This document shows, piece by piece, positions 3,095-50,429 of a stretch of DNA of 50,971 bases (the first letter of the stretch is position 1; every line of letters begins with the position of its first letter). The stretch comes from Escherichia phage herni. The position numbers and the translations under genes are program-made. The notes beneath the pieces were generated by a model that worked only from the letters and a program-made list of their open reading frames with translations, was not told the origin of the DNA and made no database searches. The stretch is from sequence record NC_049823.1. One strand, 5' to 3'.

Positions 3095-4027
3095 TTAGAG
3101 AAGAGATTCAGGTTTGTAAACCTTCCTCTCTATCCCTTGCCTGTAATTATCATTAATCGGCATCATAATTTCAAGACCTCTTTCCTCAGCAGCAATGATC
3201 GCGTCACGGTCTGTACTCTTACAGACAACTCGCATTCTTCTGTTGCCTTTATACCTGTAAGCTACAATCTCAATGTTAGTTGCATCAAAGCAGGCCCAAA
3301 CCTCTTGACCAGTTGCAAGGTGAATATGTTGCGCATCAATCCAGTCAACGCAAAGATAGATCGTCTTATCTGTGCTTCCTGTTCTCACAATTGACCCGCG
3401 CGTGTAGTCCTTTGCGAGAAAAGACTTATTACCTTCTTCATCAATGAAAAGCACATTGCACATTTCATCATCAATTTCATCTGAATGTACCAGGTAACAT
3501 GGGAGCGCGTGAATGTATCGACCATCTTTAACGCCGCATTCATAATGACCATCTTCAGGCGGGTATATTCCTTCATATGTGCTTAACGGCGTGCGATCAA
3601 ATTTTAGTGTTTTTGACATAACGCGCTCGCAGCATTCATGGCTTGCCTGTTTCCCAAATGAATAACCAGAATCACGAGATACTCGCTTATTTGCCTTGAT
3701 TCTATAGTCCTGCGGAACTTTTCCAAGAAAGCGGCCCAAAATATTGATCACTTCGCTGTAAGGTTCTCCGGTTAGTTTCATGATCCAACCAATTCCAGTA
3801 TCATTACCGCACACGTTGCAGATCGCACCGCCATCGCCTTTTTTATCGCAAAGTTTATCCGTCCACCTGAAGCGATCCTTTCCGCCGCAGTGGGGGCAAG
3901 ATTGATGCTTGCCGTTAAAAACTTCATTTGGAAGACCGCAAATACTTTGTAGCGCCTCACGCCATAATCCCTGCATATATGGGAGAACATCTTCCTTTTG
4001 ATAAACCATAAAGTTTTCGTTATTCAT
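3095..4027 (-). CDS. putative DNA primase (zinc-ribbon plus Toprim-like)
   Basis: CPHCGG...CNVCG zinc-ribbon near N-terminus, acidic DxD-like motifs downstream; start at MNNENF (ATG 4027, GAGGTG Shine-Dalgarno); sits beside the helicase locus. Confidence 0.5.
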   Translation of the reverse strand: MNNENFMVYQKEDVLPYMQGLWREALQSICGLPNEVFNGKHQSCPHCGGKDRFRWTDKLCDKKGDGGAICNVCGNDTGIGWIMKLTGEPYSEVINILGRFLGKVPQDYRIKANKRVSRDSGYSFGKQASHECCERVMSKTLKFDRTPLSTYEGIYPPEDGHYECGVKDGRYIHALPCYLVHSDEIDDEMCNVLFIDEEGNKSFLAKDYTRGSIVRTGSTDKTIYLCVDWIDAQHIHLATGQEVWACFDATNIEIVAYRYKGNRRMRVVCKSTDRDAIIAAEERGLEIMMPINDNYRQGIERKVYKPESLL

Positions 4028-4083
4028 ATGCACCTCAAACAAAAAAAGCCTGACAGATGATAACATCATTCCAGGCATTGTTT

Positions 4084-4557
4084 TTAGCAATTAGTGCTTT
4101 CAGGTTTATACAGGAATCCGCCAGGTTCATAATCTGACATTCTTACCACTCGCAACATTTCACGCTTATCACATCTCTTTGTGAGCGGTTTGCCATTGGA
4201 ATCAAATCGCAGGTCTGGACGACAGAATGATGCGCGATAGCCTTGACATCCATATTTTTTGTAATCGTTATGCACCTTTTGAGCGCCAGCGGCTGAAATC
4301 ATACCACGAACGCGCCACTGATTTACAGTTTGCTGGCTAACGTTAAGACGTTTTGCCATTGCTGACACGCTTCCGTAATACTCAATAAGGATGTCAAGTC
4401 GCGCTTTTAGTCCGGCGCGCACTTCATCTTTTAAAACATAGTATCCCGTAGGGCGCTTGCGCTTCTTCTTGTCCTTGCCTCTTCGAGTTCCGTTATTGCC
4501 ATTAATTGTTCGCTTGTCAATCTTTCCTGTTGATACTGCGATTCGTTGCTCTTTCAT
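4084..4557 (-). CDS. helix-turn-helix DNA-binding protein
   Basis: ORF track; predicted HTH segment AKRLNVSQQTVNQWRVRGMIS; very basic N-terminus; GGAGA Shine-Dalgarno. Confidence 0.55.
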   Translation of the reverse strand: MKEQRIAVSTGKIDKRTINGNNGTRRGKDKKKRKRPTGYYVLKDEVRAGLKARLDILIEYYGSVSAMAKRLNVSQQTVNQWRVRGMISAAGAQKVHNDYKKYGCQGYRASFCRPDLRFDSNGKPLTKRCDKREMLRVVRMSDYEPGGFLYKPESTNC

Positions 4558-4570
4558 TATTCATTCTCCA

Positions 4571-4616
4571 ATAGCATTTTTTGTTAAACGATGATTTAAT
4601 GATTGTGTATTATACA
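4571..4616 (+). promoter_or_regulatory. conserved intergenic motif copy (ATAGCATTTTTTGTTAAA) plus ATTATA hexamer 22 nt downstream
   Basis: Matches the repeated motif; co-oriented with the helicase gene. Confidence 0.4.
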
Positions 4617-4646
4617 CACCAAATGGCATTACTCAAAGGTTTTAGA

Positions 4647-6686
4647 ATGATTCCAAACATTGAAAAGCAAATATCAGCACTTGGTGAAGCGGTAATTAAA
4701 TCCATTCAGGAGCGATTCACTGTTGGAGAGATTGTGCCTTACCCTTACCAGTGCGTTGCATACGCTGAGATCGCAAAGCGTATGAAAAATTATGAGCATC
4801 CATTCTTTGTTAAAGCGTCCGTATCGGCTGGCAAAACATTGATGTTTGCAATGGTTGCTCACCAGTGCCGGAAAATGGGCTTGAAAATGATGGTCCTTGC
4901 TCGCCAGGCTGAGATTGTGGATCAGGATTCTGAAGAGATAACAAATATTGGTGTGCCGAACTCCATCTATTGTGCAGGACTGAAGACAAAAAGCGCATAC
5001 TTTCCGATCGTTGTTGGTTCTGAGGGAACTGTAGTTAATGGACTGTTTAAAGCGCTTGGCGACTATGTTCCGCACGTTATCGGGATTGACGAGTGTCACC
5101 AGGTGGATTGGGAAGACCTTGCCGACGCAATAGAGAAAGACGAATCATTTTTACAAATGACGACGAAGAAAGGCGAAAAAGTACCAAATCCAGATTATGA
5201 CATAACGAGCGATAACGAATGCGAAGAGTTCCTGATTGGTGAGGATGGCTTACCAATGGAGGGAACAGGCCGCACGCAATACACTGTTATTATCATGGAA
5301 ATGATGCGACGTTGCAGGAAAGCATATGGTCATGAACTGCGCATCTTTGGTATGACTGGTTCGGAGTTTCGCGGAGTAGTCCCGATCCTAGTAGAAGACA
5401 AAAAACAGAAAGGATTCTGGCGTGAACAGGTTACTAATATTGACACCAACTACCTGATCAAATTCGGTTCTGTTGTGCCAACAAATTTTGGCGACGTTGG
5501 CGATCTAGGGTATGACCTTTCAGAGTTTGAGGCATCCAGCGAGGATGGCGTCGCAGACTTTGACGCTAAAACGCTTCGCAGGATGGAACAAAAAATTCAT
5601 GAAGAAGCGACCATGACAAAGCGCATCATGGCGAAAGTTCACGAGATCTGTAAAAACCGTAACGGCGTACTTGTGACATGTGCAGGAGAAAGGCATTGCA
5701 AAGAGGCAGCGGCGGCATTGCCACCTGGAACGACTTACAGGATCATTACTGGTAAGACTGGCGACAACCAGCGCAAGGAGTGGTTGAGGGAAGCATACGA
5801 AGGGAAGGTAAAATACATCTTCCAGGTTCAGGCGCTAACTACTGGCGTTAACGTGCCGTTTTGGGATACGTCTGTTATTCTGCGTAAGATTGGATCGCTA
5901 ACTTTGCTGATTCAGCTTTTAGGACGCGGAATGCGACTTCTTAAGAAATGGCATAAGGAACAAGGCTTCAAGAAAGATGATCACCTGGTTATGGATTTTT
6001 CAGGAACGATGGACGAGTTAGGTGAGCTTTATTTTGATCCGATACTGGAACAGGCGCAACATCAGAAGCGATTCAGGAACGGTAAAGATCCGAAGCCTTG
6101 TCCTGTTTGCGGAACTCTTAATAGCTATTATGCTCGTCGTTGTATGCACGTAGACGAAAACGGCAACAGATGCGAGTGGTTCTTTAAATTCAGGACATGT
6201 GATGATCAGATTGACACGCGCACTAAAAAGATTATTCAGCGCGGTTGTGGAACGAAAAATGATATTGCGGCCAGGGTATGCAGACATTGCGACATGTCAT
6301 TGATTGACCCTAACGAGAAGTTAAGCGGAAAGCACTACACAAAAAACGACTGGTTTCAGGTGCAATCTTTCTCGGTTGACATGACGAAAAACCAGAAAGG
6401 GATAATATTTAATTATGAGCTTTCCGATGGCATAGACACTTTCAGGGCGAGAGAGATATTTTTCCCTGAATCTGAGAGCCAAATTTGCCGCGCAAAATGG
6501 CGAAGCGTTGCTCTTAAGCACATACCAGATCGCCGTGTTGCTGGCATGGTGGCGAGCTATCGTAATGCACGTAAAATCATGCAATATGTGAATCACATCA
6601 TGCCACCATCGCGTGTAACTCACCGCAAGACTAGCAAGGGTGAAGATAATTTGTACAAGAAGGACTTTAATTATGGCAATGACTGA
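4647..6686 (+). CDS. superfamily 2 DNA helicase with C-terminal zinc-ribbon region
   Basis: Walker A SVSAGKT, DExH box IDECHQ, C-terminal CxxC pairs; start ambiguous (ATG 4623 with no Shine-Dalgarno, or ATG 4647 with AAAGG; track start TTG 4581 lies inside the upstream motif). Confidence 0.7.
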   Translation: MIPNIEKQISALGEAVIKSIQERFTVGEIVPYPYQCVAYAEIAKRMKNYEHPFFVKASVSAGKTLMFAMVAHQCRKMGLKMMVLARQAEIVDQDSEEITNIGVPNSIYCAGLKTKSAYFPIVVGSEGTVVNGLFKALGDYVPHVIGIDECHQVDWEDLADAIEKDESFLQMTTKKGEKVPNPDYDITSDNECEEFLIGEDGLPMEGTGRTQYTVIIMEMMRRCRKAYGHELRIFGMTGSEFRGVVPILVEDKKQKGFWREQVTNIDTNYLIKFGSVVPTNFGDVGDLGYDLSEFEASSEDGVADFDAKTLRRMEQKIHEEATMTKRIMAKVHEICKNRNGVLVTCAGERHCKEAAAALPPGTTYRIITGKTGDNQRKEWLREAYEGKVKYIFQVQALTTGVNVPFWDTSVILRKIGSLTLLIQLLGRGMRLLKKWHKEQGFKKDDHLVMDFSGTMDELGELYFDPILEQAQHQKRFRNGKDPKPCPVCGTLNSYYARRCMHVDENGNRCEWFFKFRTCDDQIDTRTKKIIQRGCGTKNDIAARVCRHCDMSLIDPNEKLSGKHYTKNDWFQVQSFSVDMTKNQKGIIFNYELSDGIDTFRAREIFFPESESQICRAKWRSVALKHIPDRRVAGMVASYRNARKIMQYVNHIMPPSRVTHRKTSKGEDNLYKKDFNYGND

Positions 6687-7092
6687 TAAAGGCGATTATC
6701 TGGAGTTTTACGAAAGAGATCCGACGGATACGCTAAAAGAGGAATCACACCAGATCGGGGCGTTTCAATGGTTGACTTATGCTTACCCTGAATTGCTGGC
6801 ATGGCATACGAAAAACGAGGGCGACAAGGGGATCGCCACCGCAATGATGGATCAGCAAGCCGGACTCGTTAAGGGCGTAAGTGATTTTATCATCCTGATT
6901 GGATTAAAAGGCCGTTATCCGTTTGCAGCAATTGAGATGAAGCGCGTCAATAAGTCTGGAAAGGGTAAGGCTTCACCAGTCAGTAAGGAGCAAAAAGCCT
7001 TCTTACGACGTGTGCGCGAGCTTGGCGGATTCGCTGCCGTAACATACGGATATAAGCAATTCATGATCGCTGTAGAATACATGATGAAATAG
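6673..7092 (+). CDS. VRR-NUC domain nuclease
   Basis: PD-(D/E)XK-like core GVSDFIIL...IEMK; start at MAMTDKG (AAGGA Shine-Dalgarno) overlaps the helicase stop. Confidence 0.55.
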   Translation: MAMTDKGDYLEFYERDPTDTLKEESHQIGAFQWLTYAYPELLAWHTKNEGDKGIATAMMDQQAGLVKGVSDFIILIGLKGRYPFAAIEMKRVNKSGKGKASPVSKEQKAFLRRVRELGGFAAVTYGYKQFMIAVEYMMK

Positions 7093-7132
7093 CACTTTTT
7101 GTTAAAACAGGCGCGAAGGATTGCGCCATAAT
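7087..7132 (+). promoter_or_regulatory. conserved intergenic motif AAATAGCACTTTTTGTTAAAAC, hairpin GGCGC-n8-GCGCC, CATAAT
   Basis: Motif contains the TAG stop of the upstream gene; ATAAT-like hexamer lies about 35 nt upstream of the Dam gene start. Confidence 0.45.
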
Positions 7133-7166
7133 AACACCAGTTCAACAAGCAACAGGTAATTAAGAA

Positions 7167-7868
7167 ATGATCAAAGAAACCGAAGTGACATTTGAACAAA
7201 TCGAACGAGAAACATTCATTGGCAATGCTCTTGCTACCGGAGGCTATTACCAGGCTGTTAAACCAAATCAATATTATAAAGTCACTGGCAACCGCTATAA
7301 CGGCAGCAATACGCCGGACGTTGTGCGAGATTTGTGGTCTACGCCGTCTGAGCTTGTCGCATGGATGGAAATCGAATACGGTGATTATGACATCGACGCT
7401 GCGGCAAGCAAAGAAAATGCTGTATGTGAAAAATTCTACAGCAAGGAAACAAATTGCTTAAAGCGTTGGTGGGGTAGTAATAAGCATATCTGGCTGAATC
7501 CACCGTACAGCAATATAACGCCTTTCGTTAAGAAAGCGATTGAGCAAATGGAGCACAATAACCAGATCGACATTCTGTTACCTTGCGACACATCGACAGG
7601 ATGGTTTTATGAGGCACAACAGAAAGCAGCGGAAATAATCTGGATCACTGGCGAAGTTTACCAGGAGGAAGGAATAGAATATTCCAGAACTGGACGGCTT
7701 GCTTTCACTTCAGCGCTTACAGGTAAACCAGTGCAGGGAAACAACAAAGGAAGCGTTATTTTCATCATGCGCGAACTTAAAGAAGGTGAGCAGCAGAAAA
7801 CTCGATACGTTAAGATCAGCGACATTTGCCCGTCAGTGGCAGAGCGTCGAGCAAGAAAGCGGAGTTAA
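7167..7868 (+). CDS. dam: phage Dam-type DNA N6-adenine methyltransferase
   Basis: WLNPPYS catalytic motif (NPPY) and overall phage Dam-family layout; AGGTAA Shine-Dalgarno. Confidence 0.75.
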   Translation: MIKETEVTFEQIERETFIGNALATGGYYQAVKPNQYYKVTGNRYNGSNTPDVVRDLWSTPSELVAWMEIEYGDYDIDAAASKENAVCEKFYSKETNCLKRWWGSNKHIWLNPPYSNITPFVKKAIEQMEHNNQIDILLPCDTSTGWFYEAQQKAAEIIWITGEVYQEEGIEYSRTGRLAFTSALTGKPVQGNNKGSVIFIMRELKEGEQQKTRYVKISDICPSVAERRARKRS

Positions 7869-7872
7869 TATC

Positions 7873-8112
7873 ATGCAGAAAGAAAGAAGCGTTTATTTAA
7901 ATGAAACTGGAGAGTGGTTGTTATTTCGCGCTATGGTTTGCGAGGCGCTTGATAAAAACGAGTTCATAAAACCGCTATTAGGTTGTGATCCGTGGGAGTT
8001 TACAAGCGCGCTTGATATGAGCTTTGAGGAAACAAGAAAACTACCGCTTGAAAAATGGCATGAGCAGATCGGTAAAGACTTGCAAGAGTTTTACGAATCC
8101 GCGACAAAATAG
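7873..8112 (+). CDS. hypothetical protein (79 aa)
   Basis: ATG 7873 with GGAG Shine-Dalgarno; track ORF 7699 overlaps the Dam gene; stop embedded in the next motif copy. Confidence 0.5.
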   Translation: MQKERSVYLNETGEWLLFRAMVCEALDKNEFIKPLLGCDPWEFTSALDMSFEETRKLPLEKWHEQIGKDLQEFYESATK

Positions 8113-8155
8113 CACTTTTTGTTAAAAAGCCCGGCCCTGTGTCGGGCATAATTAT
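8107..8155 (+). promoter_or_regulatory. conserved intergenic motif, hairpin GCCCG-n9-CGGGC, ATAATT
   Basis: Motif copy; co-oriented with the gene at 8185. Confidence 0.45.
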
Positions 8156-8184
8156 TTCATCAAAACGAACAAGAGGAAAACAAA

Positions 8185-8364
8185 ATGGTTGTTTACGATC
8201 CACGCGCTTTTAAAATTGCTCAAGAAGTTTCACGCGAATCTGTTGCTGGCGGTTCGGTTAACGGCTATCAGTTTGATTGGTCGGCAGCAATGACCTTGCT
8301 TAAGGTTGCATATGGTCACGCGCCAATTGAAACAGCGGAGGCATATTATAAGCATGAAGGTTGA
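8185..8364 (+). CDS. hypothetical protein (59 aa)
   Basis: ATG with GAGGAAA Shine-Dalgarno; below the ORF-track size cut-off, found by reading. Confidence 0.4.
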   Translation: MVVYDPRAFKIAQEVSRESVAGGSVNGYQFDWSAAMTLLKVAYGHAPIETAEAYYKHEG

Positions 8365-8596
8365 ACAAGGTAGGCAGGCTGTATGGGATCACGCAAAGGA
8401 ATGTGGGATCTCTGAAGACATAGCCAGGATAGCAAAATATTTTGATATTGCTGACATAAGCATTATAAGCGGCGACAAAATGACTTTTCTCAATGAACGC
8501 CCGCGCAAGATGCATCGCGTCCCAGCAATACCAACAAAGATTGATTTCAAAGAGGCTATGGCGAAAATTCGCGAGCCGCGCAAATACTACAAATGA
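8354..8596 (+). CDS. hypothetical protein (80 aa)
   Basis: ATG 8354 (MKVEQGRQ...) preferred over the track start 8306, which would overlap the previous gene by about 60 nt. Confidence 0.45.
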   Translation: MKVEQGRQAVWDHAKECGISEDIARIAKYFDIADISIISGDKMTFLNERPRKMHRVPAIPTKIDFKEAMAKIREPRKYYK

Positions 8597-8607
8597 GGAT
8601 TATTATC

Positions 8608-8682
8608 ATGTGGCGTTTGTTACTTTTGCCCTTACCTGTTATGATGGCGATCTCTATTGTATATGTTGTCATAATGAGATAA
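8608..8682 (+). CDS. possible 24-aa hydrophobic micro-protein
   Basis: MWRLLLLPLPVMMAISIVYVVIMR; GAGGA Shine-Dalgarno 8 nt upstream. Confidence 0.25.
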   Translation: MWRLLLLPLPVMMAISIVYVVIMR

Positions 8683-8694
8683 GGAGAATTTTTG

Positions 8695-9810
8695 ATGAAG
8701 CAAATCAAAATCACAGATGAACAATTTATCAATGAGCGCAAGCAGGGAAAGACATATAAGCAGATAGCTAATGAGTATGGTATGAACGTTCGCAGCATTG
8801 AGCGACGCGCAGCGCGACTTGCAAAGCAAGGTAAAGTTACAACCATCGGATCACCTGGCTTTGGCGTTACTGGAGAATCAAAGCTAATTGATAAAGATGG
8901 CAATGTGGTTATGACATGGATTAAGACAAGCAAGGACCGCGAGCAGTTAGAAGCATTAATGCAGGCCGCTATGGATGCATTTAGCGAAGAAGTTCCGCGA
9001 CTTGATCCGCAACCAGAATCACAAAAGGATTATAGCGAGACGTTATCACTGTATCCGATCTTTGACATGCACTTGGGCGCAATGGCGCATAAGCATGAAT
9101 GCGGAGAGAATTGGGATACAGCAACAGCAGAGCGCGTAATGAATAATTTCATTGATTATTCTATCCAGTGCGCGCCGGATAGCGAAAAAGCTGTTTTGCT
9201 GATTGGTGGCGATATGCTTCACAGTGACGGACTTGAAGCGGTTACACCTGCAAGCGGTCACGTATTGGATCAAGATAGTCGATACGCAAAACTTGTTTAT
9301 GTTGCCATCCGGTCAGTGCGTCGAGCAATCACAAAGCTGTTATCAAAACATAAAAACGTAGAGATTCAGATAATTGAAGGCAACCACGACCAAAGCGGCA
9401 TGATCTGGTTGCGCGCAGCAATGGCGGCAGCATATGAGAATGAGCCGCGAGTGCATGTTGATGTGTCTCCGCGAGTGGTTCATCACACACAATATGGCAA
9501 AACATTCCTGGCATACCATCATGGGCACACTATCCGCAAGCCTGAAACATTGCTCATGATGTGTGCGGCAGACTGGCGCGAAGACTTCGGAAATTCAAAA
9601 ATGATGTATGCTCACGTAGGGCACTGGCATCATCAGACAGTAACTGAAACAAGCCTGGGCATTGTTGAAGTGCATAGCACTATGGCGGCAAAAGATGCAT
9701 ATGCGGCGCGCGGTGGATGGCGTTCTCGACGCCGTGCGGCTGTTATTGTTTACGATGAAGAATACGGAGAGGTAGGGCGATTTATGCATTATCCAGAAAT
9801 GGCTTATTGA
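8695..9810 (+). CDS. HTH domain fused to calcineurin-like metallophosphoesterase
   Basis: N-terminal HTH (KTYKQIANEYGMNVRSIERRAARL); phosphoesterase motifs FDMHLG, GGDMLHSDG, EGNHDQ, GHWHHQ; AAGGAGA Shine-Dalgarno. Confidence 0.7.
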   Translation: MKQIKITDEQFINERKQGKTYKQIANEYGMNVRSIERRAARLAKQGKVTTIGSPGFGVTGESKLIDKDGNVVMTWIKTSKDREQLEALMQAAMDAFSEEVPRLDPQPESQKDYSETLSLYPIFDMHLGAMAHKHECGENWDTATAERVMNNFIDYSIQCAPDSEKAVLLIGGDMLHSDGLEAVTPASGHVLDQDSRYAKLVYVAIRSVRRAITKLLSKHKNVEIQIIEGNHDQSGMIWLRAAMAAAYENEPRVHVDVSPRVVHHTQYGKTFLAYHHGHTIRKPETLLMMCAADWREDFGNSKMMYAHVGHWHHQTVTETSLGIVEVHSTMAAKDAYAARGGWRSRRRAAVIVYDEEYGEVGRFMHYPEMAY

Positions 9811-9853
9811 ACTTTTAATCATTAAAATATAAATATAAATCATAAATTTAATT

Positions 9854-9884
9854 GGGCGTGGCATTTTGCTTCGCCCTTTTTTTA
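9854..9884 (+). terminator. rho-independent terminator
   Basis: Hairpin GGGCG-n13-CGCCC followed by TTTTTTTATT. Confidence 0.6.
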
Positions 9885-9956
9885 TTCCTTTTTGTGCGTT
9901 CAATGGTTAGGATACAATCAATTAATTGTTGACTTTTATCTACAGGAGATCTAATC

Positions 9957-10172
9957 ATGAAAGATTTTTTAAACGCTGCAACTTCCGGCACTGGCGGAGC
10001 GTCAATCACTGGCGCGGTAACTGGTCAAACAACTATTGCAATAGCCAGCTTCGTTTTGATGGCTGCATTTGGTATGTGGGGCGCTTATCTTCGCTGGCGT
10101 GATAGTAAGGCGCTACGTGACGCGCTTGAATGCGGTGATATTAAGAAAGCTATTGAGATCAGAGGTAAATAA
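9957..10172 (+). CDS. holin (likely pinholin partner of the SAR endolysin)
   Basis: 71 aa, hydrophobic segment [21 protein letters not shown], charged C-terminus; immediately upstream of and overlapping the endolysin start. Confidence 0.6.
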
Positions 10173-10660
10173 TGAGTATAAAACAAAGAGTGACCGCTGC
10201 GGCTTTTGGCGTTGCTCTTGCCCTTACTTCTCCGCTACTGGAGGAAATAGAAGGAGTAAAACATAAGCCGTACAAAGATATTGCTGGGGTATGGACGGTT
10301 TGCGCCGGAATAACTGGCCCTGACGTAATACAAGGCAAAACGTACACACAAAGAGAGTGCGATGCACTACTGGCGAAGCATATCAAGATCGCAAAGGATG
10401 AAGTTGATAAGCGTGTAAAGGTTGACATTCCTGATACAATGCGCGCAGCAATGTATTCATTCACATACAATGCTGGAACTGGAGCTTTTAGAAATTCAAC
10501 CATGCTTAAGCTGATTAATAACGGTCGTTATATGGAAGCGTGCGATCAGTTATGGAGATGGACAAAATACACCAATCCAAAAACAGGAAAGAAAGAAACG
10601 TCTAAAGGACTGCGCAACCGCCGCGCGGTGGAATTTAAATATTGCATTAAGGATCTGTAA
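10172..10660 (+). CDS. SAR endolysin (T4-type lysozyme fold with signal-anchor-release N-terminus)
   Basis: Weakly hydrophobic Gly/Ala-rich N-terminal segment [17 protein letters not shown] followed by E-x8-D-x5-T catalytic spacing ([19 protein letters not shown]). Confidence 0.8.
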
Positions 10661-11885: not shown

Positions 11886-13470
11886 TTACCCCAGCAATGT
11901 TGGATTTACAAAAACAACGCCATTAATCACACAAATATAATTTCTTTCTTCAAGCATCGGCAGCAGTTGCGTTTCCATACGCTTCATTACGCCAGCCTGG
12001 CCAACAAACGGCTTAACTTTTCGTGCAGCCTCATATATGGCGCGAACATTCAAGATCCCATTGTTAGCCTTACCGTGTCGAGTGATAATCTCGATTAGTT
12101 TACCCATTTCAGCATCATCACCAGCATAGCCAGAAGCGTTGGCGGAGCTAATGTATGTTTTGCTCAACTCGCTAAACATCAGCAGTGCTTCTTGAACGGT
12201 TTCAACTTCAATCTCTTTCGACTTCTGAGGGTATCCACCAGGATTAAACCAGTCGCGGATAGTGTGCAAAACCGAAGCAATCCTGATCACCTGCTTATCC
12301 ATTTTGCCAAGAGCACCGCGCAGCATTGTATGCGAATACTTTCCGCCATCAGCAAGGTGCGGCTCCATCTCCTGACGAGCCATGTTAAGAACTCGCATTG
12401 CGGATTTGCTGATCTTAAGCTGGATGTTTGATTCACTCATGATGTTATGGATCAGCTTAAAATATTGACTTTTCAGTTCTCCATCAACAGGCTCATAAGT
12501 AGAATCACCGTTATCATCAACAAACTTTCGACGACCTAAAAATGATTCCTCACGCACAAGCAAATAACGCTCACTCACACCGATACCGCGCGATCCTGCA
12601 TCCATGATGGCATTGATTGTTTCATCCTGGGCAATCACCGCCATACAGCCAAGAGCTTTAAAACTCATATTGTTGTCAGCGTTTGCACGAGCTATAGAAA
12701 CATGACCATGATCCCATGCTTTCAGCACAAGTTCGCTGTTGGTTTTACGTTCGCTATTAGCATATGTCAGACCTAAAAGGCTGTTAATACTCGTTGCCTC
12801 GTCTGAAATCACAGCAAAGTTACCCTGGCGATTGTTGATTCTTGCAAGTCCTTCCGGCGTGGTGTCGGACACAGGGAAAACAATGTCACACATCTTTTCC
12901 AATTTTTCTTCCAGATCTTCTTTCTCCTGGTACAGAGATTCCATATCAGCGCCGGAGCGCTCGCTTTTCATCTCTTTTGCAAGACCTGCCAACTTTGCCT
13001 GAATCTTTTTTCTTTCCTTCTTTCGCTGATCGTTAATTCTTTCCACTTCTGCAACCATTGGAGCAAGTGCCAGGCTGTTAACGGCAGATTTACCAGTTGA
13101 AGGAGGCTGACTTGTGACAACATAAAGAGCGGTCGGCTGATCCGTTCCGTGATACTCAACCGTGAAGCGTCCAAGCATTGCAGCAGACACGCAGCCGATA
13201 AAATGCATATATGCCGATGATTCAGGGAACTGAACTGAGCGAGCAATGTTGCGCGCCAACTTACCAACAACATCAACATCATTGCCAAGAGAAATTACAG
13301 GGTAGCGATCATTTCCGTTATTAACATCATTAACCTCACCCCAAAAGCTGGACGATTGACGGTATCCGTTTGCCTGAATGGACACGCGCACCGGAGACAA
13401 TCCTTGTGCATCAGCTAATTCGATAATTTGTTTTGGTGTTAGTTTGTTGGTTTCAAACGAAAAATTCATT
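11886..13470 (-). CDS. P-loop ATPase, DnaB/DUF3987-like (possible helicase or primase-associated)
   Basis: Walker A QPPSTGKSAV resembling the DnaB H1 motif, Walker B-like AVISDEA; start at MNFSFETNKL (ATG 13470, AAGGAG Shine-Dalgarno). Confidence 0.55.
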
Positions 13471-13524
13471 GATGATAACTCCTTTTTTTGATGCGGCAAT
13501 AATACCGCACCAATGCTACCCGCA

Positions 13525-13544
13525 TTTAACAAAAAATGCTATTT
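13525..13544 (-). promoter_or_regulatory. conserved intergenic motif (minus orientation)
   Basis: TTTAACAAAAAATGCTATTT; contains the TAG stop of the gene ending at 13539. Confidence 0.4.
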
Positions 13545-47811: not shown

Positions 47812-48873
47812 ATGAATAAGTTTATGGCGTACACCAGCGAAGAAATGAGCAACGAGCTTTATCACGATCCAGAAGCGTGGACGGCTGATTATGTTAGCGG
47901 TTCAAGCCTGGCAGAGATTTACAGCACATGCCCGGCAGCGTGGAAGTTCAAGCCGCGTGACGACAAGAGCAAGGCGCTAGTTTTTGGTACGCAGTCGCAT
48001 ACCAACTTTGAAAGCAAGGAGCTTTTCGAAAAAACTTATCGCCGTGCGCCAGCGCCAGAAGACTTTAAGGATCTGATAACCAGCCAAACGGCGCTTGCTG
48101 CAAAGCTGAAATCATTTGGCCTGAAAGGTACAACCGGAAAGACTTACCCCGAACTTATAAAAATGATGGTTGACTGCGGAGAAGACCTTAACGTCATGTG
48201 GTTAATCGACATGATCGCAGAAAGTCAGGCCAGGGCCGATGGGGTTCAGTTAATCGAGGCTAAAGATTACGATTCGTGCGTGGCAATGCGCCAGGTTCTG
48301 GAATCAATACCGGAACATAACGCATGTATGAATAGCAAGACGGCACAGCGTGAATTATCGTTGTTCGGTGAAATTAACGGCGTAAAAGTCAAAGTGCGAT
48401 GCGATCACGTTGACGTAACAAAGAACGTCACCGCAACGCTGATTGATGGTTACGATGAAAAAGGCCAGCCGATTTGCCGCGATATTATTTATCCAGAGGC
48501 CATTGTGATCACAGACTACAAAACTACAATGAGCGCGAATCCGGCTGAGTTTATGCGCCTGGCTTACAATCACGGCTATTATTTGAAAATGGCGTTGCAA
48601 TGTGATTTATTCAGAAAAGCGTATCCAGAAGAAAAGCGACCTATAGTTGTGCGACTGTTAGCGCAAGAGAAGAAAGAGCCTTATTTGCCGTTGGCTTTCC
48701 GAATGAATAGCGAGCAGTTGAAGATCGGGCGCATTCAGTACATGAGCGTGATTAACCAGTTTGCCATGTGCCAGCAACATGACGTTTGGCCTTCGTATTC
48801 AAACGGTGAGCCTGAGGTTTGCCTTGATACTCCTGATTGGGTGCGCCGCCAGTTTAAGCAATATCTTATTTAA
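47812..48873 (+). CDS. PD-(D/E)XK recombination exonuclease
   Basis: RCDHVD and IVITDYKTT nuclease motifs; sits upstream of the Erf and SSB genes. Confidence 0.6.
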   Translation: MNKFMAYTSEEMSNELYHDPEAWTADYVSGSSLAEIYSTCPAAWKFKPRDDKSKALVFGTQSHTNFESKELFEKTYRRAPAPEDFKDLITSQTALAAKLKSFGLKGTTGKTYPELIKMMVDCGEDLNVMWLIDMIAESQARADGVQLIEAKDYDSCVAMRQVLESIPEHNACMNSKTAQRELSLFGEINGVKVKVRCDHVDVTKNVTATLIDGYDEKGQPICRDIIYPEAIVITDYKTTMSANPAEFMRLAYNHGYYLKMALQCDLFRKAYPEEKRPIVVRLLAQEKKEPYLPLAFRMNSEQLKIGRIQYMSVINQFAMCQQHDVWPSYSNGEPEVCLDTPDWVRRQFKQYLI

Positions 48874-48954
48874 ACAGCACAAATAGCTAAACAAATGAAA
48901 AATGCGGTGTTATAATTCACCGCACAAGTTAACAACAAGCGTGAGGAAATAAAC

Positions 48955-49233
48955 ATGGAAAACAAGCAAGTGTCAGAGGTGGCAGTTCATATCAACAATT
49001 TTGCAACTGGCATGGCTATGTTGCTTCGTGACTTTGTGGCGCCACTTGATCCAACTGCAGGCGAAGAAGAAATGGAGTACATCAGAAAAGTAATTGATGC
49101 GGTCGATAACGTCGTACTTATTGCAACAATGAGCGAAGACAACGATGAAGCAATCAAGGCGGTAAAAGAAAGTTCTGATCGCATGATGGAAAATCTGATT
49201 AAATTACACACCAAAGAAGAAACAAAGCACTAA
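48955..49233 (+). CDS. hypothetical protein (92 aa, acidic)
   Basis: ORF track; GAGGAAA Shine-Dalgarno. Confidence 0.5.
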   Translation: MENKQVSEVAVHINNFATGMAMLLRDFVAPLDPTAGEEEMEYIRKVIDAVDNVVLIATMSEDNDEAIKAVKESSDRMMENLIKLHTKEETKH

Positions 49234-49278
49234 CAGCAATAAGGCGGCGAAAGCCGCCATTAATTACGGGAATTAATC

Positions 49279-49935
49279 ATGAAACTATCAGAGCAATTCG
49301 ACAAGGTTTTGCCAGCACTGCATAAGGCGCGCAGTTTGTTTGTAAAGGTGAAGAAGGATAAGCAAAACACGCACCTTAAAAACCGTTACGCAACACTTGA
49401 TGCCGTACTTGATGCAATCACTCCAGCACTCAACGATAACGAGCTAATGTTGATGCAGGATATGATTGAAAGCGAACAACCTAACCGAATCAAGGTTGAA
49501 ACTACAGTCATGCATGTTTCCGGTCAGTGGGTTAAATTCTATGCTGAATTACCAATAGTTAAAAACGATCCTCAAGGCGTCGGATCTGCATTCACATATG
49601 CTCGTCGTTATGCAGCCGCAGCCGCATTTGGATTAAGCCAGGCAGACGATGACGCACAGATTGCCGTTAAATCTGCAAACGACTGGAAGCGTGACATTGA
49701 GAAATGTGAAAGCGTAAACGAATTACAAGAAGTGCTCAAATCAGCATGGAAGGCAAGCGATCCGGCAAGCAAGCAGGTAATTAAAGAGCATTACGAAAAA
49801 CGCAAAGCAGAGCTTGAGATAGGCAAAGCACGAGGATTTAATCCAGCACAACCAAAACAAAATCTTGCCTCGCCAGAAGTTGACACAAAAAACGACGAGC
49901 AAGTAAAATCACAAAGTATCACTGATTTTGAATAA
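49279..49935 (+). CDS. erf: Erf-family single-strand annealing protein
   Basis: N-terminal region with NRYATLDAV and FTYARRYA typical of the Erf family. Confidence 0.65.
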
Positions 49936-49942
49936 TTGACAT

Positions 49943-49964
49943 GGGGCGCTTGCGCCCCTTTCTT
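49943..49964 (+). terminator. rho-independent terminator
   Basis: GGGGCGC-tt-GCGCCCC followed by TTTCTT. Confidence 0.55.
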
Positions 49965-49979
49965 ACAGGAGTATAAAAC

Positions 49980-50429
49980 ATGCATATTATTACTGGTGAG
50001 ATCCGAAAAGAGCCGCGAGTAAAGCAAATGCCTAACGGCAGCACACTTTATGTGGTTGAGCTTTCAGAGCGATACAAAGATAAAGATGGAAACTGGCAAT
50101 ATACAAACTACAGTTTCTTTTTTAATGCTAAAACAGAAGGTCTTAAGGGTTGGTATGATGAGGCGTTCCAGGTTGGCAAGGTTATTTCTTTATCTTGCGA
50201 CACGCTGCGCATTGAGACGCGTGAATATAACGGAAAGATGTATTCAAGTTTAATGCCAGGAGGATTTGCAAATCTTATCTTCAGCCAGCGCGGTGAAAGC
50301 CAGCAACAATATCAGCAGCGAACGCAAGGAGGATGGGGCCAACAACAACAGAATCAACCGCAACAACCTCAACAGCCAAGACAAAGCAATCAACCTCCTA
50401 TGGACTTTGACGACGACATCCCTTTCTGA
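49980..50429 (+). CDS. ssb: single-stranded DNA-binding protein
   Basis: OB-fold-like N-terminal region, Gln/Gly-rich linker, acidic C-terminal tail DFDDDIPF. Confidence 0.8.
   Translation: MHIITGEIRKEPRVKQMPNGSTLYVVELSERYKDKDGNWQYTNYSFFFNAKTEGLKGWYDEAFQVGKVISLSCDTLRIETREYNGKMYSSLMPGGFANLIFSQRGESQQQYQQRTQGGWGQQQQNQPQQPQQPRQSNQPPMDFDDDIPF

What the first reader, a model, noticed from the sequence alone, without database searches (positions are those of the whole stretch)
4647..7092. Helicase and VRR-NUC nuclease overlap, suggesting a coupled replication-restart or anti-restriction unit
The VRR-NUC gene starts inside the last codons of the helicase gene, so the two are translationally coupled. 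The helicase carries C-terminal zinc ribbons. VRR-NUC nucleases are often partnered with helicases in phages.
Basis: partly seen in the sequence, partly recalled or inferred. Interest (0 to 1): 0.35.

Follow-up and report, generated by a model that had tools for sequence, protein, structure and literature searches.

The report
Phage RadD-like helicase plus junction nuclease
This is the standard two-gene pair of T1-like phages: a helicase-like protein related to the bacterial repair protein RadD, followed by a small nuclease of the kind that cuts branched DNA. It is real and intact, most likely tidies up recombination intermediates, and is already annotated in near-identical phages.

Summary
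A 679-aa SF2 helicase gene (4647-6686) overlaps by 14 nt a 139-aa VRR-NUC gene (ATG 6673, stop 7092), which has its own Shine-Dalgarno site. The window is a T1-like phage (Drexlerviridae, Hanrivervirus), 98.5% identical to Salmonella phage slyngel, where both genes are annotated the same way.

The helicase is a homologue of E. coli RadD. It keeps the Walker A lysine, DECH, motif VI and all eight cysteines of the RadD double zinc ribbon. The nuclease belongs to the T1p21 subfamily of VRR-Nuc, named after its phage T1 orthologue. Its catalytic E23/D71/E88/K90/Q107 are intact, and its closest folds are dimeric Holliday-junction resolvases.

The overlap itself is ordinary: 20 of 71 same-strand neighbours overlap in slyngel. 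Its geometry varies between relatives, and a homing endonuclease sits between the two genes in one relative. The adjacency, however, persists down to 26% helicase identity. Outside Drexlerviridae the pair sits directly upstream of exonuclease VIII, an annealing protein and SSB.

Best reading: a module that processes branched recombination or replication intermediates. Anti-restriction is unsupported. The pairing was noted in 2006, so it is already known. Interest is low to moderate.

The parts
4569..4589 (+). Copy of the 21-nt Drexlerviridae intergenic direct repeat (cAATAGCATTTTTTGTTAAAC) upstream of the helicase gene. It marks the start of the two-gene unit.
   Evidence: Sequence. The motif is enriched in the window. 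The consensus aaATAGCACnnnTTGnTAAAA was described for phage TLS in PMC11447400.
4647..6686 (+). RadD-like SF2 ATPase/helicase gene, 679 aa. It has a phage-specific N-terminal extension (about 28 aa) and a variable insertion (about residues 155-208).
   Evidence: ORF. Pfam ResIII and Helicase_C. PDB RadD 6jde at E = 5e-41. NCBIfam heli_RadD_YejH at 1.8e-58. Foldseek top eight hits are all RadD, E = 4e-33 to 2e-28. Alignment with E. coli RadD.
4731..6056 (+). Two RecA-like motor lobes (residues about 29-470). Landmarks are Walker A G62-K63-T64, DECH 148-151 and motif VI Q423..G426-R427-G428..R430.
   Evidence: These columns are invariant in the alignment that includes E. coli RadD and in 36 phage homologues. 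AF2 model has mean pLDDT 85.
6099..6290 (+). RadD-type double zinc ribbon, residues 485-548. The eight Cys are at 485, 488, 499, 509, 518, 534, 545 and 548.
   Evidence: Residue-by-residue alignment to RadD chain 6jde_B. The Cys columns are conserved.
6339..6671 (+). C-terminal domain homologous to the RadD C-terminal domain (residues about 565-675).
   Evidence: The NCBIfam RadD profile is matched out to position 562 of 573. AF2 predicts a beta-sheet plus helices with pLDDT 83-92. Foldseek alignment to RadD is full-length.
6660..6664 (+). Shine-Dalgarno-like AAGGA for the nuclease gene, inside the helicase coding sequence and 8 nt before ATG 6673.
   Evidence: Sequence. GGAG/AGGA-type motifs sit at the same place in relatives.
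6673..6686 (+). The 14-nt overlap. It holds the nuclease start codon ATG (6673-6675) and the last four helicase codons plus TGA (6684-6686).
   Evidence: It is a derived state: relatives read ...GAGTTCTGAtaATG (2-nt gap), whereas this clade has AAT in place of that TGA.
6673..7092 (+). VRR-Nuc (T1p21-subfamily) PD-(D/E)xK nuclease gene, 139 aa. It is a standalone, resolvase-type nuclease.
   Evidence: Pfam PF08774 at 38.3 bits. phrog_824. AF2 pLDDT 84.6. Foldseek top hits are 4qbl, 4qbn, FAN1 and 4qbo. Its T1 orthologue is ST21.
6883..6942 (+). Catalytic core codons: D71 (6883-6885), E88 (6934-6936) and K90 (6940-6942). E23 (6739-6741) and Q107 (6991-6993) lie outside this span and complete the site.
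   Evidence: Invariant in 24 close homologues. D71, E88, K90 and Q107 are invariant and E23 nearly invariant in 13 sequences down to 24% identity. The motif aligns to G-x-P-D ... E-I-K of psNUC 4qbl.
7087..7107 (+). Second copy of the 21-nt direct repeat (AAATAGCACTTTTTGTTAAAA). It contains the nuclease TAG stop codon and closes the two-gene unit.
7110..7127 (+). GC-rich hairpin (GGCGCGAAGGATTGCGCC) between the nuclease and dam genes. It is at the position annotated as a rho-independent terminator in T1.
   Evidence: The stem sequence differs between relatives while pairing is kept.
47812..50429 (+). Inferred functional partners elsewhere in the genome: RecE-like exonuclease VIII (47812-48873), Erf annealing protein (49279-49935) and SSB ending in MDFDDDIPF (49980-50429).
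   Evidence: Pfam and PHROG hits. SSB translation. In non-Drexler relatives these genes directly follow the helicase/nuclease pair.

Best explanation
This is a conserved, co-expressed two-gene module for processing branched DNA during phage recombination-dependent replication and genome maturation.

Gene 1 encodes a RadD-family SF2 ATPase with two RecA lobes, a double zinc ribbon and a RadD C-terminal domain. I infer that it binds and remodels or branch-migrates three- and four-way junctions and displaced strands. It probably works on SSB-coated DNA. The phage SSB carries the same C-terminal tip as E. coli SSB, which is the element that E. coli RadD binds.

Gene 2 encodes a standalone T1p21-type VRR-Nuc with an intact PD-(D/E)xK site. 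I infer that it acts as a dimeric structure-selective endonuclease that cuts those junctions. Biochemically studied standalone VRR-Nuc proteins behave this way.

Together the two would resolve intermediates made by the phage exonuclease VIII/Erf/SSB system and by host RecA. The result would be unbranched concatemers fit for headful packaging.

The nuclease start codon lies 14 nt inside the end of the helicase gene, behind its own SD. The two genes are bracketed by two copies of the family's 21-nt repeat, and a hairpin follows the nuclease stop codon. They are therefore made from one message, and translation may be partly coupled.

Shown: gene structure, family assignments, intact motifs and conserved synteny. 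Inferred: the substrates, the dimeric state, any physical interaction and the coupling.
For: Helicase is RadD-like.
- PDB phmmer finds RadD 6jde at 5e-41, with the alignment running through both zinc ribbons.
- NCBIfam RadD model scores 1.8e-58.
- Foldseek's top eight hits are all RadD, 20 orders of magnitude better than the next family.
- Motifs and all eight Cys are conserved.

Nuclease is VRR-Nuc.
- It scores above the Pfam cutoff.
- The catalytic residues are invariant.
- Its nearest folds are psNUC and stNUC, which are dimeric Holliday-junction resolvases in vitro (PMC4103454).
- The model has one short helix between beta1 and beta2, like psNUC, and not the two-helix FAN1 insertion that blocks dimerisation.

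Synteny.
- The pair is kept in 79 of 79 Drexlerviridae-type loci.
- It is also kept in Hungariovirus, Skarprettervirus, Caminolopintovirus, Skatevirus, two of three Vibrio phages and Brucella phage Tb, where helicase identity is 26%.
- It is kept in 6 of 6 genome-collection loci.
- In four of these (C130_2, Skarpretter, STGO-35-1, Vibrio 1.113.A) an annotated exonuclease gene follows within one short ORF. In Vibrio K174 a 67-aa ORF separates helicase and nuclease, and exonuclease VIII follows one short ORF later. An Erf- or AAA_24-type protein and/or SSB are annotated or detected downstream in C130_2, Skarpretter and STGO-35-1.

Genome context.
- The window encodes exoVIII, Erf and SSB.
- It has a separate primase and a DUF3987 'DNA helicase' as the likelier replicative helicase.
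- No other annotated junction resolvase was found.
- The SSB tip MDFDDDIPF matches the peptide that RadD binds through R21/R49/R145 (PMC10238739). These residues correspond to K47/R75/R232 here.

Prior annotation. Some database annotators already label the pair 'Holliday junction resolvase' with 'DNA repair helicase', 'radD' or 'branch migration helicase'. The TLS paper calls gp59 a Holliday junction recombinase.
Against: - No experiment exists on this pair.
- E. coli RadD shows no autonomous helicase or branch-migration activity and works only with RecA (PMC8887467). A motor role on junctions is therefore extrapolation.
- The phage protein scores far below the NCBIfam RadD equivalog cutoff (198 against 720 bits).
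- Of the three SSB-pocket arginines, only R232 is invariant in the phage family.
- Two of the three VRR-Nuc proteins assayed were weak and partly non-specific nucleases.
- Phage C130_2 carries a RusA resolvase as well as the pair, so the VRR-Nuc need not be the resolvase.
- Vibrio phage 1.076.O has the helicase without a recognisable VRR-Nuc directly downstream.
- A homing endonuclease can be inserted between the genes, so tight stoichiometric coupling is not required.
Confidence: 0.6

Rival explanations
1. Replication-initiation or replicative-helicase reading. The helicase works with the divergently encoded primase to start or drive phage DNA replication, as the TLS genome paper suggests. 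The nuclease would nick or process the origin or stalled forks. This is the strong sense of the first reader's 'replication restart'.
For: The primase (minus strand) and helicase (plus strand) are arranged divergently in the window. The same arrangement is seen in T1, C130_2, STGO-35-1 and Skarpretter. T1-like phages lack a DNA polymerase, and the TLS authors propose that primase gp56 and helicase gp58 initiate replication (PMC11447400). E. coli RadD binds synthetic forks and is implicated in fork and gap repair. psNUC cleaves replication-fork substrates to an intermediate degree.
Against: The protein is a monomer-type SF2 RadD homologue, not a hexameric replicative helicase. RadD has no detectable unwinding activity. 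The genome has a separate DUF3987 protein assigned to a PHROG 'DNA helicase' family. That protein is also present in relatives next to the primase region. Outside Drexlerviridae the pair is fused to the recombination operon rather than to replication genes.
Confidence: 0.17
2. Conflict reading. The helicase, the PD-(D/E)xK nuclease and the Dam methylase downstream form a restriction-modification-like or anti-defence unit. The nuclease would attack host or competitor DNA, or counteract restriction, while Dam protects phage DNA.
For: The helicase matches Pfam ResIII. Its nearest non-RadD folds are type I/IV restriction motors, HsdR and SauUSI. The dam gene follows within 75 nt in Drexlerviridae. 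VRR-Nuc domains serve as toxic DNases in T6SS effectors (PMC9635880). How T1-like phages degrade the host genome is listed as an open question. Brucella phage annotators called the nuclease a 'type III restriction endonuclease'.
Against: PADLOC gives only weak, local motor-domain hits for the helicase and none for the nuclease, and Dam matches an orphan methyltransferase model. A repeat plus hairpin, annotated as a terminator in T1, separates the nuclease from dam. Dam adjacency is lost in C130_2, Skarpretter, STGO-35-1 and the Vibrio phages, while helicase-nuclease adjacency is kept. The T6SS toxins form a separate VRR-Nuc clade with a different gene context. No immunity gene is evident.
Confidence: 0.08
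3. The overlap carries no specific meaning. The two genes are functionally linked neighbours in a compact operon, but the 14-nt overlap is a by-product of stop-codon drift. Each gene would be translated from its own ribosome-binding site.
For: 20 of 71 co-directional neighbours overlap in the slyngel annotation. Junction geometry varies among relatives: -2 (20 loci), -1 (1), +1 (14), +4 (34), +11 (3), +14 (5) and +17 (3). The overlap here arises because AAT replaces the TGA seen in relatives, and the added tail has pLDDT below 50. A good SD precedes the ATG. No occluding RNA structure is predicted. A homing endonuclease is inserted between the genes in BEK12B.
Against: Stop and start stay within 20 nt of each other in every one of 79 loci. 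They also do so in most of the distant relatives examined. This is what selection for coupled or re-initiating translation would maintain. Even the inserted homing endonuclease keeps 1-nt and 4-nt overlaps on both sides.
Confidence: 0.4

Closest known systems
Phage T1 ST22 (putative ATP-dependent helicase) and ST21 ('T1p21', founder of the T1p21 subfamily of VRR-Nuc; Iyer et al. 2006). Near-identical annotated pairs exist in Hanrivervirus phages: slyngel gp43/gp44, egaa and haarsle.
   Same: The genes are orthologous and in the same order, with overlapping stop and start (4 nt in T1). The flanking primase, regulator and dam genes are the same. The VRR-NUC protein is 100% identical to that of phage haarsle. 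The helicase association of the subfamily is already recorded in the literature.
   Different: The overlap is 14 nt here against 4 nt in T1. This helicase is about 64% and the nuclease about 67% identical to the T1 proteins. Neither T1 protein has been studied biochemically as far as the searched literature shows.
E. coli RadD (YejH), PDB 6jde, 7r7j and 8h5y
   Same: It is an SF2 motor with Walker A lysine, DECH and motif VI. It has the same double zinc ribbon with eight Cys and a homologous C-terminal domain. It is the best sequence and fold match by a wide margin.
   Different: Identity is 29%. The score is below the NCBIfam equivalog cutoff (198 against 720 bits). The phage protein has an N-terminal extension and a variable insertion of about 50 aa after DECH, and lacks two RadD loops. 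E. coli radD is a solitary chromosomal gene between rsuA and rplY with no nuclease partner. RadD acts only with RecA, whereas the phage encodes an Erf annealing protein.
Standalone VRR-Nuc proteins psNUC, stNUC and saNUC (PDB 4qbl, 4qbn, 4qbo; Pennell et al. 2014)
   Same: The fold and the catalytic D/ExK plus conserved Gln are the same. All are single-domain proteins of similar size. psNUC shares the short helix between beta1 and beta2.
   Different: Sequence identity is only about 16-20%, with weak E-values (0.83 by profile, 6e-3 by Foldseek). This subfamily adds a conserved N-terminal beta-hairpin (D8, Y9, E11, Y13 invariant), an H45-x-x-N-E49 motif and a lysine/glycine-rich loop after ExK. 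Dimerisation and junction cleavage are untested here.
Branch-migration motor plus resolvase pairs: RuvAB-RuvC, RecG with RusA, T4 UvsW with endonuclease VII
   Same: The proposed logic is the same: an ATP-driven motor on branched DNA works with a dimeric junction endonuclease to clear recombination intermediates before segregation or packaging. This is an analogy from established knowledge, not homology.
   Different: The protein families are unrelated, apart from distant SF2 kinship with RecG and UvsW. No evidence yet shows that the RadD-like protein migrates junctions or contacts the nuclease.
FAN1 (eukaryotic and Pseudomonas VRR-Nuc nuclease)
   Same: It shares the VRR-Nuc catalytic domain.
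   Different: FAN1 is a large monomer with a two-helix insertion that blocks dimerisation, and it cuts 5' flaps rather than Holliday junctions. The phage protein is a minimal standalone domain.

Membership tests
VRR-Nuc (Pfam PF08774), T1p21 subfamily | Score above the curated Pfam gathering threshold | tested here: met
   38.3 bits against a cutoff of 23.8, E = 1.5e-9.
VRR-Nuc (Pfam PF08774), T1p21 subfamily | PD-(D/E)xK catalytic residues (helix-1 Glu, Asp, Glu-x-Lys) plus the VRR-Nuc-specific Gln | tested here: met
   E23, D71, E88, K90 and Q107 are invariant in 24 homologues. D71, E88, K90 and Q107 are invariant and E23 nearly invariant in 13 sequences down to 24% identity.
VRR-Nuc (Pfam PF08774), T1p21 subfamily | [quoted passage not shown] | tested here: met
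   AF2 pLDDT is 84.6. The top seven Foldseek PDB hits are VRR-Nuc entries 4qbl and 4qbn (probability 0.98-1.00), followed by FAN1. E-values are modest (6e-3).
VRR-Nuc (Pfam PF08774), T1p21 subfamily | Encoded next to a helicase gene, the subfamily hallmark (Iyer 2006, via PMC9635880) | tested here: met
   T1 ST21 is the orthologue.
VRR-Nuc (Pfam PF08774), T1p21 subfamily | Homodimer that cleaves four-way junctions symmetrically | not testable with these tools
   The evidence is indirect. The model shows one short helix (54-63, low confidence) instead of the FAN1 two-helix insertion.
RadD (YejH) DNA repair helicase family | SF2 motifs: Walker A Lys, DECH, motif III and motif VI arginines | tested here: met
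   K63, D148-E149-C150-H151, T237 and Q423/G426/R427/G428/R430 are invariant in the alignment with E. coli RadD.
RadD (YejH) DNA repair helicase family | RadD-type double zinc ribbon after the motor domains | tested here: met
   Eight Cys align with RadD in the phmmer alignment and in MAFFT. They are conserved in 90% or more of 36 homologues.
RadD (YejH) DNA repair helicase family | Homologous C-terminal domain and full-length architecture | tested here: met
   The NCBIfam RadD profile is matched to position 562 of 573. Foldseek alignments of about 680 columns to RadD chains give E = 4e-33.
RadD (YejH) DNA repair helicase family | NCBIfam equivalog score cutoff (same function as E. coli RadD) | tested here: not met
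   198.2 bits against a cutoff of 720. It is a RadD-family homologue, not an equivalog.
RadD (YejH) DNA repair helicase family | SSB C-terminal-peptide pocket framed by R21, R49 and R145 | tested here: inconclusive
   The equivalent positions are K47, R75 and R232 in this protein. Only R232 is invariant across the phage family. The phage SSB ends in MDFDDDIPF.
RadD (YejH) DNA repair helicase family | RecA-dependent acceleration of strand exchange without autonomous unwinding | not testable with these tools
   This is a biochemical property (PMC8887467).
Restriction-modification or anti-phage-defence helicase-nuclease systems | Match to a curated defence-system protein model | tested here: not met
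   PADLOC gives only local motor-lobe hits at E = 5e-7 to 3e-6 for the helicase and none for the nuclease. Dam matches 'orphan methyltransferase'.
Restriction-modification or anti-phage-defence helicase-nuclease systems | Conserved linkage of nuclease and helicase to a cognate methyltransferase | tested here: not met
   The dam gene follows only in Drexlerviridae. It is replaced by exoVIII, an annealing protein and SSB in C130_2, Skarpretter, STGO-35-1 and the Vibrio phages.
Replicative (hexameric) phage helicases | DnaB/SF4- or SF3-type ring helicase fold | tested here: not met
   The fold is a two-lobe SF2 RadD fold. A separate DUF3987/phrog_2373 'DNA helicase' is encoded at 11886-13532.
Translationally coupled gene pair | Downstream start within or next to the upstream stop, with translation dependent on the upstream gene | tested here: inconclusive
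   The geometry is met: 14-nt overlap, and proximity is conserved. However, the gene has its own SD, no occluding structure is predicted, and a homing endonuclease insertion is tolerated. Dependence needs an experiment.

The most novel reading that the evidence does not exclude
The phage pair is a minimal, RuvABC-independent 'resolvasome'. In it, a RadD-family motor physically hands branched DNA to a dedicated VRR-Nuc resolvase and works with an Erf-type annealing protein and SSB rather than with RecA. If so, the deeply conserved gene linkage would show what kind of DNA structure RadD-family proteins act on. That would give a tractable system for the still enigmatic cellular RadD, which has no known partner nuclease and no autonomous helicase activity.
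Probability: 0.25. Interest if true: 0.5.

Novelty: already known. Interest (0 to 1): 0.27.

Why it matters
For genome annotation it matters little. Both genes are already annotated in near-identical phages, and the helicase/VRR-Nuc linkage of the T1p21 subfamily was noted in 2006.

Its modest value lies elsewhere. The partner helicase can now be named as a RadD homologue. The RadD-like/VRR-Nuc pair is conserved from Enterobacteria phages to Brucella and Vibrio phages, usually fused to an exonuclease VIII, annealing protein and SSB operon. That gives a concrete, testable hypothesis for two open questions. One is how polymerase-less T1-like phages turn recombination intermediates into packageable concatemers. 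The other is what RadD-family proteins do to DNA.

Tried and rejected
- Sequence search of the nuclease against PDB found nothing at E <= 1. A family profile gave only a weak 4qbl hit (E = 0.83). The fold comparison was needed.
- Search for helicase-nuclease fusion proteins as a Rosetta-stone test. Ten unusually long family members were scanned. The N-terminally longer ones contain inteins or homing endonucleases. The C-terminally longer ones have no Pfam nuclease domain. No fusion was found.
- RNA structure at the gene junction that could enforce coupling: none (MFE -8.7 kcal/mol, z = +0.86).
- Promoter and terminator scan of 4000-10200 found no more sites than shuffled sequence. No plus-strand terminator lies between the two genes.
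- GATC clustering in the helicase gene was reported for TLS. Here there are 14 sites in 2 kb against a genome mean of 5.5 per kb, which is unremarkable.
- Defence and anti-defence models (PADLOC) gave no meaningful hit.
- PDB sequence search for the DUF3987 helicase gave no informative hit.
- A genome-collection scan with the broad VRR-Nuc alignment failed because no stretch was conserved enough. It was replaced by a helicase-based scan.
- Literature searches for 'RadD' with 'VRR-NUC' and for 'RadD-like' with 'phage' found no study of the pair. The Druantia/Zorya preprint contained nothing on these genes.
- The Vibrio phage 1.076.O downstream ORF is not a VRR-Nuc.


Full report
**What is there.** The window is a complete or nearly complete genome of a T1-like siphophage. 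The 2.9 kb around the finding is 98.5% identical to Salmonella phage slyngel (Drexlerviridae, Tempevirinae, Hanrivervirus). It is 96-98% identical to many Escherichia and Shigella phages.

On the plus strand an ORF runs from ATG 4647 to TGA 6684-6686 and encodes 679 aa. A second ORF in another frame runs to TAG 7090-7092, with in-frame ATGs at 6673 and 6679. ATG 6673 is preceded at 8 nt by AAGGA (6660-6664). It gives an N-terminus, MAMTDKGDY, that matches homologues. RefSeq uses the equivalent start in slyngel. The overlap is therefore 14 nt. The coordinates and the overlap in the finding are correct.

**Identity of the helicase.**
- Pfam sees only generic ResIII and Helicase_C domains.
- A sequence search of the PDB finds E. 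coli RadD (6jde) at E = 5e-41, and the alignment runs through both zinc ribbons.
- The NCBIfam RadD/YejH model matches at 1.8e-58 out to profile position 562 of 573. The score of 198 bits is well below the 720-bit equivalog cutoff.
- An AlphaFold model (pLDDT 85) has the eight RadD chains as its best PDB matches, at E = 4e-33 to 2e-28. The next family, type I restriction HsdR, is at 2e-12.
- In an alignment with E. coli RadD (fetched), several features are invariant: Walker A K63, DECH 148-151, motif VI and the cysteines at 485, 499, 509, 518, 534, 545 and 548. C488 is conserved in all but one sequence.

The 'C-terminal zinc ribbons' are therefore the RadD zinc-ribbon domain at residues 485-548. 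A further RadD-like C-terminal domain follows them.

Phage-specific features are an N-terminal extension of about 28 aa and a variable insertion after DECH. RadD's SSB-binding arginines R21, R49 and R145 (PMC10238739) correspond to K47, R75 and R232. Only R232 is invariant in the phage family. The phage's own SSB ends in MDFDDDIPF, identical to the E. coli SSB tip.

**Identity of the nuclease.**
- The Pfam VRR_NUC score is above threshold.
- Twenty-four homologues (59-99% identity) show invariant E23, D71, E88, K90 and Q107. In thirteen sequences down to 24% identity, D71, E88, K90 and Q107 stay invariant and E23 nearly so.
- The AlphaFold model (pLDDT 84.6) is closest to psNUC (4qbl) and stNUC (4qbn), then to FAN1 and saNUC.
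- Pennell et al. (PMC4103454) showed that such standalone VRR-Nuc proteins are dimers that cleave four-way junctions symmetrically. FAN1 is monomeric because of a two-helix insertion. The model here has only one short helix at that position.

The phage T1 orthologue is ST21. This is the 'T1p21' protein after which Iyer et al. (2006) named a VRR-Nuc subfamily 'encoded upstream of helicases', as cited in PMC9635880.

**Is the overlap special?** No.
- In the slyngel annotation 20 of 71 co-directional neighbours overlap.
- Among 79 Drexlerviridae-type loci from IMG/VR, all have the helicase immediately upstream. One further locus, phage Vc1, was mis-called by the start-picking script and has an annotated 5-nt gap.
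- The junction geometry varies across those 79 loci: 4 nt (34 loci), a 2-nt gap (20), 1 nt (14), 14 nt (5), 11 nt (3), 17 nt (3) and a 1-nt gap (1).
- The 14-nt form results from AAT replacing the TGA found in relatives. This adds five poorly ordered residues.
- The junction RNA has no significant structure.
- In BEK12B, of the same genus, a homing-endonuclease gene sits exactly between the two genes.

Translational coupling is plausible, because stop and start always stay close. It is neither demonstrated nor obligatory.

**Is the pairing special?** Yes. The RadD-like helicase is followed on the same strand by a T1p21-type VRR-Nuc in all of the following:
- Hungariovirus C130_2 (1-nt overlap);
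- Skarpretter (1 nt);
- Caminolopintovirus STGO-35-1 (1-nt gap);
- Skatevirus KFS-SE2 (14 nt), whose helicase is annotated radD;
- Vibrio phages K174 and 1.113.A;
- Brucella phage Tb (4-nt overlap, helicase identity 26%; hhalign probability 95.6% for the nuclease).

Only Vibrio phage 1.076.O lacks the nuclease directly downstream. Six of six loci recovered from the bacterial and archaeal genome collection also have it.

In C130_2, Skarpretter, STGO-35-1 and Vibrio 1.113.A an exonuclease gene follows the pair within one short ORF (annotated as exonuclease VIII in C130_2 and 1.113.A). In Vibrio K174 a 67-aa ORF separates helicase and nuclease, and exonuclease VIII follows one short ORF later. 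An Erf- or AAA_24-type protein and/or SSB follow where they could be identified. In the window those genes lie elsewhere (47812-50429) and dam follows the pair instead.

E. coli radD, by contrast, is a solitary gene. No helicase-nuclease fusion was found among long family members, which instead carry inteins.

**Mechanism.** The best-supported reading is a branched-DNA processing module. The RadD-like motor would act on SSB-coated recombination and replication intermediates, and the VRR-Nuc dimer would cut junctions. The result would be unbranched concatemers for headful packaging.

Support comes from the family assignments and the recurrent fusion to the recombination operon. The genome also has a separate primase and a DUF3987 'DNA helicase' as the probable replicative helicase. 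No other annotated resolvase was found in the genome.

Several caveats apply. E. coli RadD has no autonomous helicase activity and acts only with RecA (PMC8887467). Two of the three assayed VRR-Nuc proteins were weak enzymes. C130_2 also carries RusA.

The replication-initiation reading from the TLS paper is less likely, given the fold and the second helicase. The anti-restriction or restriction-modification-like reading lacks support. PADLOC gives nothing meaningful, dam linkage is not conserved, and a repeat plus hairpin separates the nuclease from dam.

**Novelty.** Near-identical genes are already annotated as DNA helicase and VRR-NUC. Some records call them radD or DNA repair helicase and Holliday junction resolvase. 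The TLS paper lists gp59 as a junction 'recombinase', and the subfamily's helicase linkage dates from 2006. I found no paper that treats the RadD/VRR-Nuc pairing explicitly or tests it. The finding is real, intact and already known in kind. Its residual interest is as a route to understanding RadD-family function.

Noticed in passing
window 4569-4589 and 7087-7107. Other exact copies of the core start at 8113, 11356, 13525, 14201, 16251, 16757, 17633, 19044, 19507, 24434, 32940 and 36700.: The 14-nt core CAYTTTTTGTTAAA occurs 14 times exactly, and 19 times with up to 2 mismatches, against 2.9 expected. In the early-gene regions the copies lie in the direction of transcription. Two copies bracket the helicase/nuclease pair, and the second contains the nuclease stop codon. 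This is the 21-nt Drexlerviridae direct repeat aaATAGCACnnnTTGnTAAAA reported for phage TLS. Its function is listed there as an open question.
   Followed up: partly
window 7110-7127; same position in loci L006-L085: A GC-rich hairpin follows the repeat after the nuclease gene. It keeps its pairing while its stem sequence changes between Drexlerviridae clades (GGCGCG, GCCGGA and CCCGGCG variants). T1 annotates it as a rho-independent terminator, although it is followed by ATAAT/ATTAT rather than a T-run.
   Followed up: partly
L089 (Escherichia phage BEK12B) 3034-3504: A 157-aa homing-endonuclease gene is inserted precisely between the helicase and VRR-NUC genes in a phage of the same genus. 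It overlaps both neighbours, by 1 nt and 4 nt.
   Followed up: partly
proteins P0285, P0305, P0310, P0313 and P0343 (distant RadD-like helicases): Several distant family members carry inteins (Intein_splicing, Hint, LAGLIDADG). Where an N-terminal motor lobe is detected (P0310, P0313), the intein begins just after its DECH-motif region.
   Followed up: no
window 49980-50429: The phage SSB ends in PPMDFDDDIPF, identical to the E. coli SSB C-terminal protein-interaction peptide. It could therefore recruit host SSB-binding proteins as well as the phage RadD-like protein.
   Followed up: partly
window 11886-13532 (minus strand): A second 'helicase' is a DUF3987 protein (phrog_2373) with no sequence-detectable relative in the PDB. 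It is the likelier replicative helicase of these polymerase-less phages and is structurally uncharacterised.
   Followed up: partly
phage-collection hits H3-H7 and H11: About 20 GenBank records named 'Campylobacter phage' (MG0656xx, host C. jejuni, unannotated) are 96-98% identical to this Escherichia/Salmonella T1-like phage. This suggests mislabelled or contaminant records.
   Followed up: no
L099, L096 and L095: Phage-type RadD-like/VRR-Nuc loci sit on 40-47 kb contigs assigned to an 'archaeon' MAG, to Nitratidesulfovibrio and to Cereibacter. These are probably phage contigs binned or co-assembled with those genomes.
   Followed up: no
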